Shown here piece after piece: positions 1-25,358 of a stretch of 25,358 bases of DNA. Below the pieces are notes generated by a model that did no database searches, was not told the origin of the DNA, and saw only the letters and a list, made by a program, of their open reading frames with translations. The position numbers were made by a program, and so were the translations under genes. Within the stretch, counting starts at the first letter, position 1. The number at the start of each line of letters is the position of its first letter. The DNA comes from a virus (lineage: Duplodnaviria; Heunggongvirae; Uroviricota; Caudoviricetes): IMG/VR virus record IMGVR_UViG_2706794668_000002. The stretch is one strand, 5' to 3'.

Positions 1-200
1 CCACGGGAATATCTGCGGCAGCGGGCTTGTAATGGGTTAAGTGATAACAGATGTCTGGAAATATAGGGGCAAATCCAATCGTCGCCGTATTCCCGTATTA
101 ACAGAGACCGTAGCCCGACGGGGAACTCCTTCTGCGCGAGTGTGCGGGAATAATCAAAAACGATGCACACCGGGGTTACCGGGTACACATATTTCATCAT
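1..200 (-). CDS. possible leftward ORF, hypothetical protein; start ATG at 200, C-terminus lies beyond the window start
   Basis: Minus-strand frame is open for 66 codons from ATG at 200 to position 1 (MMKYVYPVTPVCIVFDYSRTLAQKEFPVGLRSLLIREYGDDW...). Same frame and direction as the leftward gene ending at 246. Not in the ORF track (no stop inside window). No recognisable family and weak RBS, so tentative. Confidence 0.25.
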   Translation of the reverse strand, partial: MMKYVYPVTPVCIVFDYSRTLAQKEFPVGLRSLLIREYGDDWICPYISRHLLSLNPLQARCRRYSR

Positions 201-245
201 GCCAGCGAGTCCGGTTCTGGCACGGAAGAAACCGGACGTTATGAT

Positions 246-656
246 TTAGTGCGGAAATATTTGTGTAGTGTTCTGTATGTTCTCAGTAAAGAGTAATGAA
301 TTATCAAAGGTATAGTAATACCTTTTGTTTTCGTGGATATTTGTAATCCATCTGAAAACCCCTGCTGTAGCAAGATTTTTCCTGTATTCGTAAAATGATA
401 ACTCTCCTGATTTGAATCCTTTTAAGGTGGCTTCTATAAGGCATTTATTTTTTGAAAATCTTACATTTACAACCTTACCCTGTCCTTTTATTAAAACCGT
501 ATTATCGTTTTCAAGAACAAGATGAATATTCTCTGTGGCTAAATAGTAAATGTAATGTGAGACATTGTGACGTTTTAGTTCAGAATAAAACCAGTGATAG
601 TTTAAATTATTTCGCACTTTATCGAATATTTGTTTAAAAATGGCAACCTGAGCCAT
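246..656 (-). CDS. hypothetical protein, AT-rich moron between lysis region and cos (136 aa if started at MAQVAIFKQ...)
   Basis: ORF track 246..671 (-). The second in-frame ATG at 656 is preceded by GGAAGG with a 7-nt spacer, so 656 is the preferred start. Composition is visibly AT-rich relative to the phage structural genes. Size and position resemble the small 'putative envelope protein' ORFs found between bor and cos in lambdoid prophages, but I cannot confirm family from memory. Confidence 0.65.
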
Positions 657-713
657 TGTAGTACCTTCCATGTGATATGAGGGGGCGTAGTCTGCACGAT
701 TATCTAAATTGCT

Positions 714-947
714 TCAATCTGGTCTAACCTGTTTTCTGAGCAATTCAGTAATGTCACTCTTTTCTTTGTTTGCTTCAGGCGAAACTCTTTTTTCTGAGCA
801 CAGTCTCCGGCGGCAGGCTTCAATGACCCAGGCTGAGAAATTCCCGGACCCTTTTTGAACAAGAGCGATGTTAATTTGTTCAATCATTTGGTTAGGAAAG
901 CGGATGTTGCGGGTTGTTGTTCTGCGGGTTCTGTTCTTCGTTGACAT
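714..947 (-). CDS. small ribbon-helix-helix-like DNA-binding protein (lambda right-end orf / DUF3950-like)
   Basis: 77-aa ORF MSTKNRTRRTTTRNIRFPNQMIEQINIALVQKGSGNFSAWVIEACRRRL... The N-terminal two thirds match my recollection of the small leftward ORF at the right end of lambda just before cos. The pattern of a basic strand (RNIRFP) followed by two helices is typical of Arc/CopG-type RHH folds. The C-terminal tail differs from the lambda version as I recall it. Confidence 0.75.
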   Translation of the reverse strand: MSTKNRTRRTTTRNIRFPNQMIEQINIALVQKGSGNFSAWVIEACRRRLCSEKRVSPEANKEKSDITELLRKQVRPD

Positions 948-1116
948 GAGGTTGCCCTGTATTCAGTGTCGCTGATTTGTATTGTCTGAAGTTGTTTTTA
1001 CGTTAAGTTGATGCAGATCAATTAATACGATACCTGCGTCATAATTGATTATTTGACGTGGTTTGATGGCGTAGATGCACGTTGTGACATGTAGATGATA
1101 ATTATTATCATTTTGC

Positions 1117-1320
1117 GGGTCCTTTCCGGCGATCCGACAGGTTACGGGGCGGAAGGCGCGCGGGTTTTCGCTATTTATGACAATTTTCCGGTTTAAGGCG
1201 TTTCCGTTCTTCTTCGCCGTAACCTAATGTTTTTATTTAAAACACCCCCTGAAAAGAAAGGAAACGACAGGTGCTGAAAACGGGCTTTTTGGCCTCTGTC
1301 GTTTCCTTTCTCTGTTTTTG
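1117..1320 (+). other. cos: cos site in joined form: cosQ-like GGGTCCT (1117-1123), cosN core (about 1141-1164, cohesive-end equivalent 1147-1158), cosB with Nu1-binding R elements (R3 about 1198-1216; R2 1257-1270 and R1 1297-1310 as an inverted pair) and an AT-rich IHF-type segment (1221-1245)
   Basis: Sequence 961-1146 matches the lambda right end (...GATCCGACAGGTTACG) and 1159-1335 matches the lambda left end (CGCGGGTTTTCGCTATTTATGA...GGAAACGACAG...CTGTCGTTTCC...) directly upstream of Nu1. GGAAACGACAG and CTGTCGTTTCC form an inverted repeat visible in the sequence. Confidence 0.85.
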
Positions 1321-1335
1321 TCCGTGGAATGAACA

Positions 1336-1855
1336 ATGGAAGTCAACAAAAAGCAGCTGGCTGACATTTTCGGTGCGAGTATCCGTACCATTCAGAACTG
1401 GCAGGAACAGGGAATGCCCGTTCTGCGAGGCGGTGGCAAGGGTAATGAGGTGCTTTATGACTCTGCCGCCGTTATAAGATGGTATGCCGAAAGGGATGCT
1501 GAAATTGAGAACGAAAAGCTGCGCCGGGAAGTTGAAGAACTGCGGCAGGCCAGCGAGACAGATCTCCAGCCAGGGACTATTGAGTACGAACGCCATCGAC
1601 TTACGCGTGCGCAGGCCGACGCACAGGAGCTGAAAAATGCCAGAGACTCCGCTGAAGTGGTGGAAACCGCATTCTGTACTTTCGTGCTGTCGCGGATCGC
1701 AGGTGAAATTGCCAGTATTCTCGACGGGATCCCCCTGTCGGTGCAGCGGCGTTTTCCGGAACTGGAAAACCGACATGTTGATTTCCTGAAACGGGATATC
1801 ATCAAAGCCATGAACAAAGCAGCCGCGCTGGATGAACTGATACCGGGGTTGCTGA

Positions 1856-1881: not shown

Positions 1882-5615
<3,734 letters not shown>

Positions 5616-15784: not shown

Positions 15785-16034
15785 NNNNNNNNNNNNNNNN
15801 NNNNNNNNNNNNNNNNNNNNNNNNNNNNNNNNNNNNNNNNNNNNNNNNNNNNNNNNNNNNNNNNNNNNNNNNNNNNNNNNNNNNNNNNNNNNNNNNNNNN
15901 NNNNNNNNNNNNNNNNNNNNNNNNNNNNNNNNNNNNNNNNNNNNNNNNNNNNNNNNNNNNNNNNNNNNNNNNNNNNNNNNNNNNNNNNNNNNNNNNNNNN
16001 NNNNNNNNNNNNNNNNNNNNNNNNNNNNNNNNNN
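15785..16034. other. run of 250 N (assembly gap or masked bases) spanning the K 3' end and I 5' end
   Basis: Literal n characters. The K frame enters the run and the I frame leaves it. Confidence 0.99.
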
Positions 16035-23800: not shown

Positions 23801-23945
23801 ACACGCGCATACTGTCGGTATTGGTGCTCATACGCACTCTGTTGCGATTGGTTCACATGGACACACCATCACCGTTAACGCTGCTGGTAACGCGGAAAAC
23901 ACCGTCAAAAACATCGCATTTAACTATATTGTGAGGCTCGCATAA
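20862..23945 (+). CDS. stf: side tail fiber protein Stf, full length, with an expanded Ala/Ser/Thr-rich repeat shaft and a His-rich C-terminal tip
   Basis: [60 protein letters not shown]... matches the lambda Stf N-terminus. The track ORF starts at GTG 20856; I prefer ATG 20862. The C-terminus ...[31 protein letters not shown] matches the lambda Stf end. Stop overlaps the tfa start (TAATG). Confidence 0.9.
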
Positions 23946-24526
23946 TGGCATTCAGAATGAGTGAACAAGCACGGACCATAAAAATTTATAACCTGCTGGC
24001 CGGAACTAATGAATTTATTGGTGAAGGTGACGCATATATTCCGCCTCATACAGGTCTGCCTGCAAACAGTACCGATATTGCACCGCCAGATATTCCGGCT
24101 GGTTTCGTGGCTGTTTTCAACAGTGATGAGTCATCGTGGCATCTCGTTGAAGATCATCGGGGTAAAACGGTTTATGACGTGGCTTCCGGCGACGCGTTAT
24201 TTATTTCTGAACTCGGCTCATTACCGGAAAATGTCACCTGGTTATCCCCGGAAGGGGAGTTTCAGAAGTGGAACGGCACAGCCTGGGTGAAGGATACGGA
24301 AGCAGAAAAACTGTTCCGGATCCGGGAGGCGGAAGAAACAAAAAACAGCCTGATGCAGGTAGCCAGTGAGCATATAGCGCCGCTTCAGGATGCTGTGGAT
24401 CTGGAGATCGCAACGGAGAAAGAAACCTTGTTGCTGGAAGCTTGGAAAAAGTATCGGGTGTTGCTGAACCGTGTTGATACATCAACTGCACCGGATATTG
24501 AATGGCCAGTAGCACCTATAGGGTAA
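23945..24526 (+). CDS. tfa: tail fiber assembly protein Tfa
   Basis: 193-aa [82 protein letters not shown]... matches lambda Tfa as I recall it. Confidence 0.93.
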
Positions 24527-24610
24527 ATTCGTAATGATTACCTAAATACGTTATTCTTTTGTTAAAAAAGTGATTTTGCTATAGGTAGGGAGTATGTTCT
24601 TGGATTAAGA

Positions 24611-24642
24611 ATAAAAAATCGCCATGAAAGAGCTTCATGGCG
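24611..24642 (-). terminator. intrinsic terminator for leftward transcription, convergent on tfa
   Basis: Perfect 9-bp stem CGCCATGAA / TTCATGGCG (24620-24628 and 24634-24642) with a 5-nt loop. On the minus strand it is followed by ATTTTTTAT (A-run 24613-24618 on the plus strand). Confidence 0.65.
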
Positions 24643-24791
24643 AGTACATAAACGTACAAAATGTGATGAAAGTAGAGTGGCGTAAGCCACTATATTAAGA
24701 TATGACAATAGCGAAGAAAAGTAAATAACATTTTATGGACGTTTAATTGTTAATTATAAAAACTAGAGTGCCCGATATTGTTTATCTTGCT

Positions 24792-24893
24792 TTAAAATAA
24801 TGTACTCAAACCAAATTTTTGAGCTAAAAGCTCAAATAATATAAATGCAATAATAATGTTTAATAAGACAATTAGCTTGCTTTGTATTTTCAT
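24792..24893 (-). CDS. candidate small hydrophobic protein (33 aa), speculative
   Basis: Minus-strand ATG at 24893 to TAA ending at 24792 gives MKIQSKLIVLLNIIIAFILFELLAQKFGLSTLF: basic N-terminus then an 18-20 residue hydrophobic stretch. A sigma70-like TTGACT (24956-24951), 17-nt spacer, TATTGT (24933-24928) lies upstream on the same strand, and the terminator at 24642-24611 lies downstream. No clear Shine-Dalgarno. AT-rich DNA inflates Ile/Leu/Phe codons, so this may be chance. Confidence 0.2.
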   Translation of the reverse strand: MKIQSKLIVLLNIIIAFILFELLAQKFGLSTLF

Positions 24894-25275
24894 TTCGGAA
24901 TACTGTTAAGTAACTTTGATGACCCTAACAATAGATCGGAATTTTCTTAGAGTCAATGGTCACTGTTTTTGCTTGCAAAGCAAATGTTTTGGTGGTTATA
25001 AGTCGTCTTAATATAGTCACGCATGCAACTTGTTCCATGCGGAGATTAAAGATTGGAATATAACGCGAAGATGGAATTAAATTACATTTGCAATAATTAA
25101 TTTATTATTACTCAATAATTACCGATATTATTATTGTAAATTAATCATTAGAATGCAAAAAGAAATGTAACGGCAAAATAAGAGGACGATAGCTGAGAAA
25201 AAAGCGTGCTTTCCCAATCTGGGGCAAATCACGTCTGAATGACACCTGAAAACAGGTGGTAGCCTCAAGAAGGCT

Positions 25276-25358
25276 GGTGATGCTGCCAACTTACTGATTT
25301 AGTGTATGATGGTGTTTTTGAGGTGCTCCAGTGGCTTCTGTTTCTATCAGCTGTCCCT
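25276..25358 (+). mobile_element. insA: IS1 left end (IRL and 5' leader; insA GTG start at 25331), element continues beyond window
   Basis: GGTGATGCTGCCAACTTACTGATTTAGTGTATGATGGTGTTTTTGAGGTGCTCCAGTGGCTTCTGTTTCTATCAGCTGTCCCT is the canonical IS1 left terminus as I recall it. GTG GCT TCT GTT TCT ATC AGC TGT CCC encodes the InsA start MASVSISCP. Confidence 0.88.

What the first reader, a model, noticed from the sequence alone, without database searches (positions are those of the whole stretch)
246..947. AT-rich leftward moron unit (RHH protein plus 136-aa protein) abutting cos, antisense to the late operon
Every structural gene runs rightward, but these genes run leftward, so they are positioned for expression from the prophage independently of late transcription. 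The 136-aa gene is conspicuously AT-rich compared with the flanking phage DNA, which is a hallmark of acquired morons. The upstream 77-aa protein looks like a ribbon-helix-helix DNA binder; its N-terminal part resembles the lambda right-end small ORF but its C-terminal tail differs. A small RHH protein followed by a partner is the layout of many toxin-antitoxin and small defence cassettes as well as of simple autoregulated morons, so the function is open.
Basis: partly seen in the sequence, partly recalled or inferred. Interest (0 to 1): 0.55.

Follow-up and report, generated by a model that had tools for sequence, protein, structure and literature searches.

The report
Lambda's ynfO–ydfO right-end accessory genes
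The two leftward genes are the ordinary, already annotated ynfO-type (DUF3950) and ydfO/ybcV-type (DUF1398) genes found beside cos in lambda and in about 70% of E. coli genomes; they are two separable accessory units with host-regulator sites, not a toxin–antitoxin pair, and what the proteins do is still unknown.

Summary
Two minus-strand ORFs lie at 246–656 (136 aa) and 714–947 (77 aa). The first is 31% GC against a window mean of 55%.

Both genes are known. The 136-aa protein is Pfam DUF1398 and about 80% identical to E. coli YdfO (PDB 2HH8). The 77-aa protein is DUF3950, the YlcI/YnfO family. Lambda, DLP12 and Qin carry both. This window has the Qin arrangement, which lacks ybcW/lambdap79. 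RefSeq annotates the pair identically, and 3,802 of 5,426 complete E. coli genomes match the region.

The "RHH plus partner" cassette reading is weak:
- DUF3950 occurs in 155 phage records and DUF1398 in only 43.
- Stx phages carry DUF3950 alone, next to an unrelated packaging module.
- Distant DUF1398 genes stand alone on chromosomes.
- Homology to Stx phages starts exactly at the DUF3950 ATG and stops near codon 47, so the tail plus the DUF1398 gene form an insertion/deletion cargo.

Both proteins are under purifying selection. The ribbon-helix-helix fold is plausible but unproven. The window keeps the K-12 regulator sites: a perfect FNR box upstream of the DUF3950 gene and a PdhR box upstream of the DUF1398 gene. 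Verdict: already known genes, modest interest.

The parts
246..656 (-). DUF1398 gene, a ydfO/ybcV/lambdap78 allele of 136 aa. An alternative upstream ATG at 671 would give 141 aa.
   Evidence: Pfam PF07166 at 147 bits against a cut-off of 22. PDB 2HH8 YdfO matches at E 1.4e-69, about 80% identical by eye from the printed alignment. It is 100% identical to the gene of phages PhiR49_1, Kati and ev099. RefSeq calls it 'DUF1398 domain-containing protein'. GC is 31.4%. pN/pS is 0.24-0.41.
714..947 (-). DUF3950 gene of the YlcI/YnfO family, Qin ynfO-type allele, 77 aa.
   Evidence: Pfam PF13132 at 72.8 bits against 25, and NCBIfam NF041551 at 35.2 against 30. It differs from K-12 YnfO at two residues. 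RefSeq calls it 'YlcI/YnfO family protein'.
807..947 (-). Conserved N-terminal domain of the DUF3950 protein (codons 1-47): a basic arm followed by two predicted helices. This is the putative DNA-binding core.
   Evidence: Homology to Stx phages begins exactly at the ATG (947) and ends at 807-813. pN/pS is 0.05-0.13. It is nearly invariant across 20 family members. The AF2 core has pLDDT 82-84, with helices at 19-32 and 34-53.
731..784 (-). Qin-type junction segment. It encodes most of the variable C-terminal tail and stands where lambda and DLP12 carry 613 bp containing lambdap79/ybcW.
   Evidence: blastn block boundaries. The junction is present in 2,182 of 5,426 E. coli genomes, and ybcW in 1,938.
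717..733 (-). PdhR-box-like palindrome AACAGGTTAGACCAGAT upstream of the DUF1398 gene. It overlaps the last codons of the DUF3950 ORF.
   Evidence: The sequence is read. The Qin box AACAGGTCAGACCAGAT and the DLP12 box were PdhR gSELEX targets, and ybcV mRNA fell 10-fold in a pdhR mutant (PMC7660256).
699..726 (-). Promoter-like site TAGACC-16-GATAAT, 43 nt upstream of the DUF1398 start codon.
   Evidence: Consensus scan, 9 of 12 matches, not above chance on its own. It lies in the roughly 75-bp upstream block conserved with lambda, DLP12 and Qin.
209..237 (.). Conserved hairpin GTCCGGTT-N13-AACCGGAC just beyond the DUF1398 stop codon. It may be a 3' end or terminator element.
   Evidence: Inverted repeat I11. 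Qin carries a compensatory change, GTCCGGCT/AGCCGGAC. There is no U-run on the minus strand, so its function is inferred only.
1008..1021 (.). Perfect FNR box TTGATGCAGATCAA, centred 67.5 bp upstream of the DUF3950 ATG.
   Evidence: It is the only match in the window. The identical site is bound by FNR in ChIP-chip, EMSA and ChIP-seq at nohA/ynfO and ylcI/nohB in K-12 (PMC1802558; PMC3688515 Tables S5, S6, S9). It lies in a stretch invariant among six lambda-type phages.
981..986 (-). Candidate -10 hexamer GACAAT of a leftward class II FNR-type promoter. The inferred +1 is near A973, which puts the FNR centre at about -41.5.
   Evidence: Geometry worked out from the sequence. This is inference only: no transcription start data exist, and the consensus scan did not call a promoter here.

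Best explanation
The interval holds two separate, non-essential accessory genes of the lambdoid lysis-to-packaging junction. It is not one two-gene cassette.

(1) The 77-aa gene is a ynfO/ylcI allele. Its first 47-50 residues form a strongly constrained, very basic small domain. This domain is most likely a dimeric ribbon-helix-helix-type DNA binder (inferred). Its C-terminal tail is simply whatever sequence follows a recombination junction. The gene is read leftward, against the late operon, from the invariant about 120 bp (948-1070) of the 200-bp spacer next to cos. That region carries a perfect FNR box, which K-12 data show is occupied by FNR in vivo. The likely mode is expression in the lysogen under host control rather than phage control.

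(2) The 136-aa gene is a ydfO/ybcV/lambdap78 allele. It is a soluble DUF1398 protein with no conserved catalytic-looking residues, so it is probably a binding protein rather than an enzyme (inferred). It is carried as an AT-rich moron with its own roughly 75-bp upstream block (a PdhR box plus a promoter-like site) and a 3' hairpin. In K-12 the orthologous DNA is H-NS-bound and PdhR-dependent.

This window has the Qin-type arrangement, in which the two genes abut. In this arrangement read-through from the ynfO promoter into the DUF1398 gene is possible. The rightward gene ybcW/lambdap79, recently shown to activate the Vulcan NADase defence, is absent.

Shown here: identities, distribution, mosaic boundaries, selection, and presence of the regulator sites. 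Inferred: the fold, DNA binding, promoter use, and any benefit to the lysogen.
For: Identity: Pfam and NCBIfam hits, PDB 2HH8, and the annotations of lambda, DLP12 and Qin. Qin is collinear with window 208-1400 at 90% identity.

Separability: tblastn finds DUF3950 in 155 phage records and DUF1398 in 43. Stx phages WGPS8 and JLK-2012 carry DUF3950 alone, divergent from an HNH-TerS-TerL module. In WGPS8 the gene has its own Shine-Dalgarno sequence and an intrinsic terminator. Homology blocks are window 947..807 and 188..78 only, so 189-806 is cargo. Distant DUF1398 genes (31-44% identity) in Kluyvera, Klebsiella, Salmonella diarizonae and Raoultella have no DUF3950 or terminase gene within 4 kb, and the three loci examined in detail lie beside housekeeping or effector genes.

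Selection.

Fold hints: AF2 gives a coil for residues 1-18, then two helices joined at G33 with pLDDT 82-84. Five of the eight Foldseek PDB hits are ParD ribbon-helix-helix antitoxins. hhalign places NIRFP on Arc's NLRWP strand.

Host wiring: FNR box with published ChIP and EMSA. PdhR box. H-NS masks the ybcV/ybcW FNR site. A ybcW-ylcI convergent transcript overlap is seen in at least 50% of K-12 RNA-seq samples. ybcV and ybcW are up under microaerobiosis.

Non-essentiality: lambdap78 CRISPRi.

lambdap79 as Vulcan activator, with escape by recombination with Qin.

Against: FNR binding is real, but no FNR-dependent expression change was found at ylcI/nohB or nohA/ynfO (Myers Table S9). The noh-direction lacZ fusion was FNR-independent. 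The leftward promoter has never been tested. The consensus scan finds no good sigma-70 promoter upstream of the 77-aa gene.

In Stx phages the DNA upstream of the ATG is unrelated, so the FNR-linked promoter cannot be a universal feature of the gene.

No biochemical activity is known for either protein. The AF2 model of DUF1398 was unusable at pLDDT 49.
Confidence: 0.6

Rival explanations
1. Bicistronic autoregulated operon. In the Qin-type arrangement the 77-aa protein is a repressor of its own promoter. It therefore also controls the DUF1398 gene 57 bp downstream.
For: The genes share a strand, have only a 57-bp gap and show no terminator-like site between them. The arrangement is identical in Qin and in 2,182 E. 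coli genomes. An inverted repeat ATCAATTAATACG/CGTCATAATTGAT at 1017-1049 overlaps the FNR box in the invariant upstream stretch and could be an operator.
Against: In lambda and DLP12 the same two genes are 650 bp apart with an opposite-strand gene between them. The DUF1398 gene there keeps its own conserved upstream block and shows PdhR dependence. In Stx phages the DUF3950 gene has an unrelated upstream region and no DUF1398 gene, so neither a conserved operator nor a conserved target exists.
Confidence: 0.2
2. Toxin-antitoxin or small anti-phage defence cassette. The DUF3950 protein would be a ParD/RelB-like ribbon-helix-helix antitoxin whose C-terminal tail neutralises a DUF1398 toxin or effector.
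For: The gene order (small basic protein first, larger partner second) fits. The best, though non-significant, Foldseek hits are ParD antitoxins with an N-terminal RHH and a C-terminal helix. There is a weak PHROG HicB-like hit at E 0.055.
Against: The genes are not co-inherited. The C-terminal tail that would have to bind the toxin is a mosaic of unrelated sequences, while the DUF1398 partner stays 76-100% identical. PADLOC gives no significant hit, with the best at E 0.025. YdfO was over-produced in E. coli as a soluble protein for NMR (2HH8), and published over-expression raised oxidative-stress resistance rather than killing cells (PMC4077768). lambdap78 knock-down has no phenotype.
Confidence: 0.07
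3. Packaging-linked regulator. The DUF3950 protein acts on the adjacent packaging module. It might control the Fur-regulated rightward noh/nu1 promoter, bind near cos, or exclude related phages or satellites. This would explain why the gene always sits immediately upstream of, and divergent from, the terminase genes.
For: The position is the same next to two unrelated packaging modules, Nu1/A with cos and HNH-TerS-TerL. Capsid-forming PICIs of Enterobacter are reported to carry a YlcI/YnfO protein together with TerS/TerL (PMC13612085). The invariant upstream stretch lies in the 200 bp between the gene and cosN.
Against: The homology break falls exactly at the ATG, so no shared DNA target exists on the packaging side. 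The gene co-varies with the lysis-side block rather than the terminase type. The 933W-like Stx2a phages sampled carry that block, and none appears among the sampled DUF3950 hits. No packaging phenotype has ever been mapped here, to my knowledge.
Confidence: 0.1

Closest known systems
E. coli K-12 Qin prophage ynfO-ydfO (b4533-b1549), next to nohA
   Same: Same two genes in the same order and orientation, with the same 57-bp spacing. The DNA is collinear over window 208-1400 at 90% identity. The same FNR box and the same PdhR-type box are present.
   Different: The DUF1398 allele is diverged: about 80% identical (by eye from the printed alignment) to the PDB YdfO sequence, pN about 0.13. Here the genes sit in an apparently intact lambda-like prophage with full head and tail genes rather than in a cryptic remnant. 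The cosN overhang also differs.
Phage lambda right end (lambdap78, lambdap79 and the unannotated 64-aa leftward ORF) and DLP12 ybcV-ybcW-ylcI
   Same: Same DUF1398 gene at 76% amino-acid identity. Same DUF3950 N-terminal domain at 94.5%. Same position between the lysis genes and cos-nu1, and the same AT-richness.
   Different: Lambda and DLP12 carry 613 bp with the rightward gene lambdap79/ybcW between the two genes, where the window has 54 bp. The DUF3950 tail differs as a result. Lambda's p78 is annotated with a spurious 177-aa extension.
DUF3950 genes of Stx-converting phages (for example Stx2a_WGPS8 gp69 and JLK-2012 gp69)
   Same: Same N-terminal domain: synonymous sites have diverged (pS 0.47-0.64) while the protein is conserved. 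Same place and orientation, just upstream of the packaging genes.
   Different: The gene is monocistronic; in Stx2a_WGPS8 an intrinsic terminator follows it. There is no DUF1398 neighbour. The upstream DNA is unrelated (an HNH endonuclease gene) and has no FNR box.
Ribbon-helix-helix repressors and antitoxins (Arc, Mnt, CopG, ParD, RelB)
   Same: Size, a basic N-terminal arm, a motif that aligns with the Arc and Mnt strand (N-I-R-F-P), and two helices joined at a glycine. ParD proteins are the top structural hits.
   Different: No significant sequence, profile or structure match was obtained. Dimerisation and DNA binding are untested. No cognate operator or toxin partner is conserved.

Membership tests
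DUF1398 (PF07166; YdfO/YbcV/YcgX family) | Full-length match to the family HMM above the gathering score | tested here: met
   147 bits against a cut-off of 22, covering residues 13-131 of 141 and profile positions 1-119 of 119. All 16 diverse relatives also match.
DUF1398 (PF07166; YdfO/YbcV/YcgX family) | Close sequence relationship to the structurally solved member YdfO (PDB 2HH8) | tested here: met
   E 1.4e-69 over residues 1-140, about 80% identical. A fold comparison was not possible because the AF2 model was poor at pLDDT 49.
DUF3950 / YlcI-YnfO family (PF13132, NF041551) | Match to both curated models above their cut-offs | tested here: met
   Pfam 72.8 bits against 25. NCBIfam 35.2 against 30.
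Ribbon-helix-helix (Arc/MetJ/CopG) superfamily | Significant sequence or profile similarity to an RHH family | tested here: not met
   No RHH Pfam family matches any of 20 members at E up to 10. A profile search of the PDB finds nothing.
Ribbon-helix-helix (Arc/MetJ/CopG) superfamily | Strand-helix-helix topology with structural similarity to solved RHH proteins | tested here: inconclusive
Ribbon-helix-helix (Arc/MetJ/CopG) superfamily | Homodimer that inserts a two-stranded sheet into the DNA major groove | not testable with these tools
   This needs a multimer prediction or an experiment.
Type II toxin-antitoxin module | The two genes are co-inherited as a pair | tested here: not met
   155 against 43 phage records. 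Stx phages have DUF3950 only. Distant DUF1398 genes stand alone. Lambda and DLP12 have an opposite-strand gene between the two.
Type II toxin-antitoxin module | The second gene product is toxic and the first neutralises it | not testable with these tools
   Only indirect evidence exists: YdfO was over-produced for NMR, and over-expression was reported as protective.
Known anti-phage defence systems (PADLOC-DB) | Match to a defence-system protein model | tested here: not met
   The best hit is Csx23 at E 0.025 for DUF1398. There is none for DUF3950.
Moron (an accessory gene inserted between conserved phage genes, with its own expression signals) | Present or absent between sharp homology boundaries in otherwise related phages | tested here: met
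   Window 189-806 (the DUF1398 gene plus the DUF3950 tail) is missing between conserved blocks 78-188 and 807-947 in Stx phages.
Moron (an accessory gene inserted between conserved phage genes, with its own expression signals) | Atypical base composition | tested here: met
   31.4% GC against 54.7% (SD 6.4%) for the window.
Moron (an accessory gene inserted between conserved phage genes, with its own expression signals) | Own promoter and terminator, and expression in the lysogen | tested here: inconclusive
   A promoter-like site and a PdhR box lie in a conserved upstream block, and a hairpin lies 3' of the gene. Expression evidence comes only from the K-12 orthologues in the literature.

The most novel reading that the evidence does not exclude
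The strongest-scoring FNR site in the motif table excerpts of Myers et al. (Table S6), an 'orphan' target because no FNR-dependent gene was found beside it, may be the class II promoter of the later-annotated ynfO/ylcI gene. Under this reading lambdoid prophages would make a tiny, highly conserved DNA-binding protein specifically in the anaerobic gut. That protein would act in trans on host or phage DNA, possibly with the DUF1398 protein in Qin-type phages, as a lysogenic-conversion or phage-exclusion function.
Probability: 0.15. Interest if true: 0.5.

Novelty: already known. Interest (0 to 1): 0.25.

Why it matters
These are two of the last uncharacterised genes of phage lambda, and they are present in most E. 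coli genomes, often in several copies. Three points make them somewhat more tractable.

- They are separable units, so they can be studied independently.
- The DUF3950 domain is under very strong constraint across phages with unrelated neighbours, which argues for a real trans-acting function.
- The region is wired to host regulators (FNR, PdhR, H-NS, probably Fur), which suggests conditions in which to look for a phenotype.

The Qin-type allele seen here also lacks ybcW/lambdap79, the reported trigger of the Vulcan NADase defence. The prediction is that this phage evades that system. About 40% of E. coli genomes carry the trigger-less junction and about 36% carry the trigger gene, a polymorphism that may reflect defence pressure.

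None of this changes the basic verdict that the finding is an ordinary, already annotated locus.

Tried and rejected
- **AF2 on DUF1398.** A 21-sequence alignment gave pLDDT 49, so no fold search was run on it.
- **afdb50 fold library.** It was unavailable. The BFVD search of the DUF3950 model gave nothing.
- **Locus search with a broad alignment.** The broad DUF1398 alignment was too diverse, so a narrower one was used.
- **Rfam.** At E up to 1 on window 1-1400 it returned only chance miRNA hits on the cosB-side palindrome.
- **HEPN_AbiA_CTD (E 0.014) and anthranilate synthase (E 0.0014) hits for DUF1398.** Both are far below their cut-offs and were treated as noise.
- **Legacy labels 'putative envelope protein' and 'head protein' (phrog_413).** These were rejected. 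There is no hydrophobic segment (maximum 19-residue Kyte-Doolittle score 0.39). The protein was solved as a soluble NMR structure. The gene lies outside and antisense to the structural operon, and it is non-essential.
- **The + strand ORF 41..244 with a PHROG 'Rz-like spanin' hit.** It was rejected as a gene because the conserved block it covers has single-base indels between phages.
- **Autoregulation through a conserved operator.** This was disfavoured because nothing upstream of the ATG is shared with Stx phages.
- **A functional link between DUF3950 and the conserved block 78-188.** This was rejected because the block occurs in 432 phage records against 155 for DUF3950, including 933W-like phages that do not appear among the sampled DUF3950 hits.
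- **Sigma-70 consensus scan.** It found no convincing leftward promoter upstream of the 77-aa gene.
Full report
**What is there**

The window opens in the right end of a lambda-like prophage. cosN lies near 1146/1147. nu1 is at 1336-1881 on the + strand, and the terminase large subunit gene and the + strand ORFs read as head and tail genes follow it.

- 246..656 encodes 136 aa. An in-frame ATG at 671 would give 141 aa. The GGAAGG 7 nt before the ATG at 656, together with RefSeq practice, favours 136 aa.
- 714..947 encodes 77 aa.

The 136-aa gene is 31.4% GC. The window mean is 54.7% with SD 6.4% for windows of the same length. The 77-aa gene is 44.4% GC.

**What the genes are**

The 136-aa protein is a full-length member of Pfam DUF1398 (147 bits against a cut-off of 22). 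It matches E. coli YdfO, whose NMR structure is PDB 2HH8, at E 1.4e-69 (about 80% identical by eye from the printed alignment).

The 77-aa protein is DUF3950, the NCBIfam YlcI/YnfO family.

Both genes are present in lambda itself. lambdap78 is the DUF1398 gene and is annotated too long, at 177 aa. An unannotated 64-aa leftward ORF is the DUF3950 gene. They are ybcV and ylcI in DLP12, and ydfO and ynfO in Qin.

blastn shows window 77-730 aligned to lambda at 82.6% identity and 785-1400 at 95%. Between those blocks the window has 54 bp where lambda has 613 bp containing the rightward gene lambdap79/ybcW.

Qin is collinear with window 208-1400 at 90% identity, with the same 57-bp gap between the two genes. 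The window therefore carries the Qin-type allele.

RefSeq annotates a 99.9%-identical locus as "DUF1398 domain-containing protein" plus "YlcI/YnfO family protein" next to nohD. The region matches 3,802 of 5,426 complete E. coli genomes, with up to 12 copies per genome. This is an already known locus.

**Both are real genes**

Between lambda-type and Stx-type alleles, codons 1-47 of the DUF3950 gene show pS 0.44-0.67 but pN only 0.03-0.07, so pN/pS is 0.05-0.13. The DUF1398 alleles show pN/pS 0.24-0.41 at pS 0.30-0.44.

**Are they a pair?**

The evidence says no.

In the phage collection, tblastn finds DUF3950 in 155 records and DUF1398 in 43.

In Stx-converting phages (Stx2a_WGPS8 and JLK-2012) the DUF3950 gene stands alone. 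It is divergent from an unrelated HNH-TerS-TerL packaging module. In Stx2a_WGPS8 it has a strong Shine-Dalgarno sequence and its own intrinsic terminator.

Homology between the window and these phages consists of only two blocks.
- 947..807 starts exactly at the ATG and ends near codon 47.
- 188..78 lies beyond the DUF1398 gene.

Everything between the blocks, namely the DUF3950 tail and the whole DUF1398 gene, is an insertion/deletion cargo.

Across the family the first 50 residues are nearly invariant, while the tails are unrelated mosaics.

DUF1398 is a small family. It has 189 cluster representatives at E up to 1e-3 among 1.84 billion. The 20 loci retrieved for its distant members all lie in Enterobacteriaceae. 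These members (31-44% identity) in Kluyvera, Klebsiella, Pseudocitrobacter, Raoultella and Salmonella diarizonae have no DUF3950, Nu1 or terminase gene within 4 kb. In the three loci examined in detail they stand alone beside housekeeping or effector genes. K-12 also has a chromosomal paralogue, ycgX.

If the DUF3950 tail were a toxin-binding segment it should co-vary with the partner. Instead it changes freely while the partner stays 76-100% identical. PADLOC gives no significant match. The toxin-antitoxin or defence-cassette reading is therefore unlikely.

**The ribbon-helix-helix question**

The pattern is suggestive. The protein has a basic arm (MSTKNRTRRTTTRN) followed by NIRFP, which hhalign places on the Arc (NLRWP) and Mnt (NFRMP) strands. 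Two helices then join at a glycine. AF2 gives pLDDT 82-84 for residues 21-50, with helices 19-32 and 34-53. Five of the eight Foldseek PDB hits are ParD antitoxins.

Nothing is significant, however.
- No RHH Pfam family matches at E up to 10.
- hhalign probability is 3% or lower.
- Foldseek E-values are 2.5 or worse.
- BFVD gives nothing.

I treat the ribbon-helix-helix fold as the most likely one, but unproven.

**How the genes are probably expressed**

The about 120 bp immediately upstream of the 77-aa gene (948-1070) are almost invariant among six lambda-type phages whose flanks vary.

This stretch holds a perfect FNR box, TTGATGCAGATCAA, at 1008-1021. It is the only match in the window.

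The identical site was bound by FNR in K-12 at nohA/ydfO and nohB, by ChIP-chip and EMSA (PMC1802558). It was bound again at nohA/ynfO and ylcI/nohB by ChIP-seq. It has the highest motif score in the table excerpts retrieved, and ylcI was named the estimated target (PMC3688515).

From the sequence, a -10 hexamer GACAAT at 986-981 and a +1 near A973 would put FNR at about -41.5. That is class II geometry. This step is inference.

Against it, Myers et al. list both peaks among those with no FNR-dependent expression change. Grainger et al. saw no FNR effect, but they tested only the noh orientation. The consensus scan calls no promoter here.

The DUF1398 gene has its own roughly 75-bp upstream block conserved with lambda, DLP12 and Qin. 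The block contains AACAGGTTAGACCAGAT at 733..717. This corresponds to the Qin and DLP12 PdhR gSELEX boxes, and ybcV mRNA falls 10-fold in a pdhR mutant (PMC7660256). The block also holds a promoter-like site, TAGACC-16-GATAAT.

Other K-12 data fit expression from silent prophages under host control.
- H-NS covers the ybcV/ybcW region and masks an FNR site there.
- T4 MotB, which perturbs H-NS, raises ybcV and ybcW more than 1000-fold.
- Microaerobiosis raises both genes.
- A convergent ybcW-ylcI transcript overlap appears in at least half of RNA-seq samples.

lambdap78 is non-essential for lytic growth.

**Context that adds some interest**

A 2026 preprint reports that lambdap79 activates the Vulcan NADase defence. 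Lambda-vir escapers delete the gene by recombining with Qin. The window's arrangement is that natural trigger-less allele.

The Qin-type junction occurs in 2,182 of 5,426 genomes, and ybcW in 1,938.

**Verdict**

The locus is nonetheless the ordinary, annotated ynfO-ydfO pair, and the cassette analogy does not hold. Function remains unknown.

My best model is two independent accessory units. One is a small, probably DNA-binding protein. The other is a soluble, non-enzymatic-looking protein. Both are wired to host regulators. Novelty is rated "already known" and interest is modest.

Noticed in passing
window 1147-1158: The 12-nt cohesive-end sequence at cosN is GGGCGGAAGGCG, not lambda's GGGCGGCGACCT: 5 of the 12 bases differ, while the flanks are conserved. 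Lambda, Qin, DLP12, 2H10 and the otherwise 98.6%-identical phage PhiR49_1 all have the lambda sequence. The variant recurs in 12 of 118 cos-bearing loci fetched. Only about 89 of 3,468 matching E. coli records are at least 95% identical across it.
   Followed up: partly
window 1095-1111, with the + strand promoter-like site at 1084-1111: The palindrome ATGATAATTATTATCAT resembles a Fur box (resemblance recalled from memory). It overlaps the best promoter-like site of the region, GTGACA-16-TATCAT on the + strand, which points into cos and nu1. Myers et al. list nohA as Fur-regulated. A host-controlled rightward promoter may therefore drive nu1/noh from the prophage.
   Followed up: no
window 78-190 (stem at about 88-102 with 140-152): This block of about 110 nt is conserved in 432 phage records, including 933W-like Stx2a phages that do not appear among the sampled DUF3950 hits. 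Single-base indels argue against coding. On the + (late transcript) strand RNAalifold predicts a long hairpin. One of its pairs appears as U-G, G-C and C-G in different phages, and several other changes are G-U compatible. Rfam has no match.
   Followed up: partly
window 24500-25358: A second strongly AT-rich stretch (GC down to 28%) follows the ORF at 23945-24526, read as tail-fibre assembly (tfa) from its position. It has no ORF of 110 aa or more. It may be another accessory region running off the window end.
   Followed up: no
window 3140-3434 and 15785-16034: Two runs of N mask the sequence. The first interrupts the terminase large subunit ORF.
   Followed up: no
protein search results: Dozens of ENA contigs of about 3.5 kb encode error-ridden YbcV and YlcI variants. 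They look like the lambda control DNA used in nanopore sequencing (my recollection, not tested). They inflate the apparent diversity of both families in metagenome-derived protein sets.
   Followed up: no
L001 1668-2201 (lambda lambdap78): Lambda's annotated 177-aa lambdap78 begins at an upstream GTG. Alignment with all relatives, and the conserved Shine-Dalgarno plus ATG, indicate that the real protein is the 136-aa form. The labels 'putative envelope protein' and 'head protein' appear to be propagated misannotations.
   Followed up: partly
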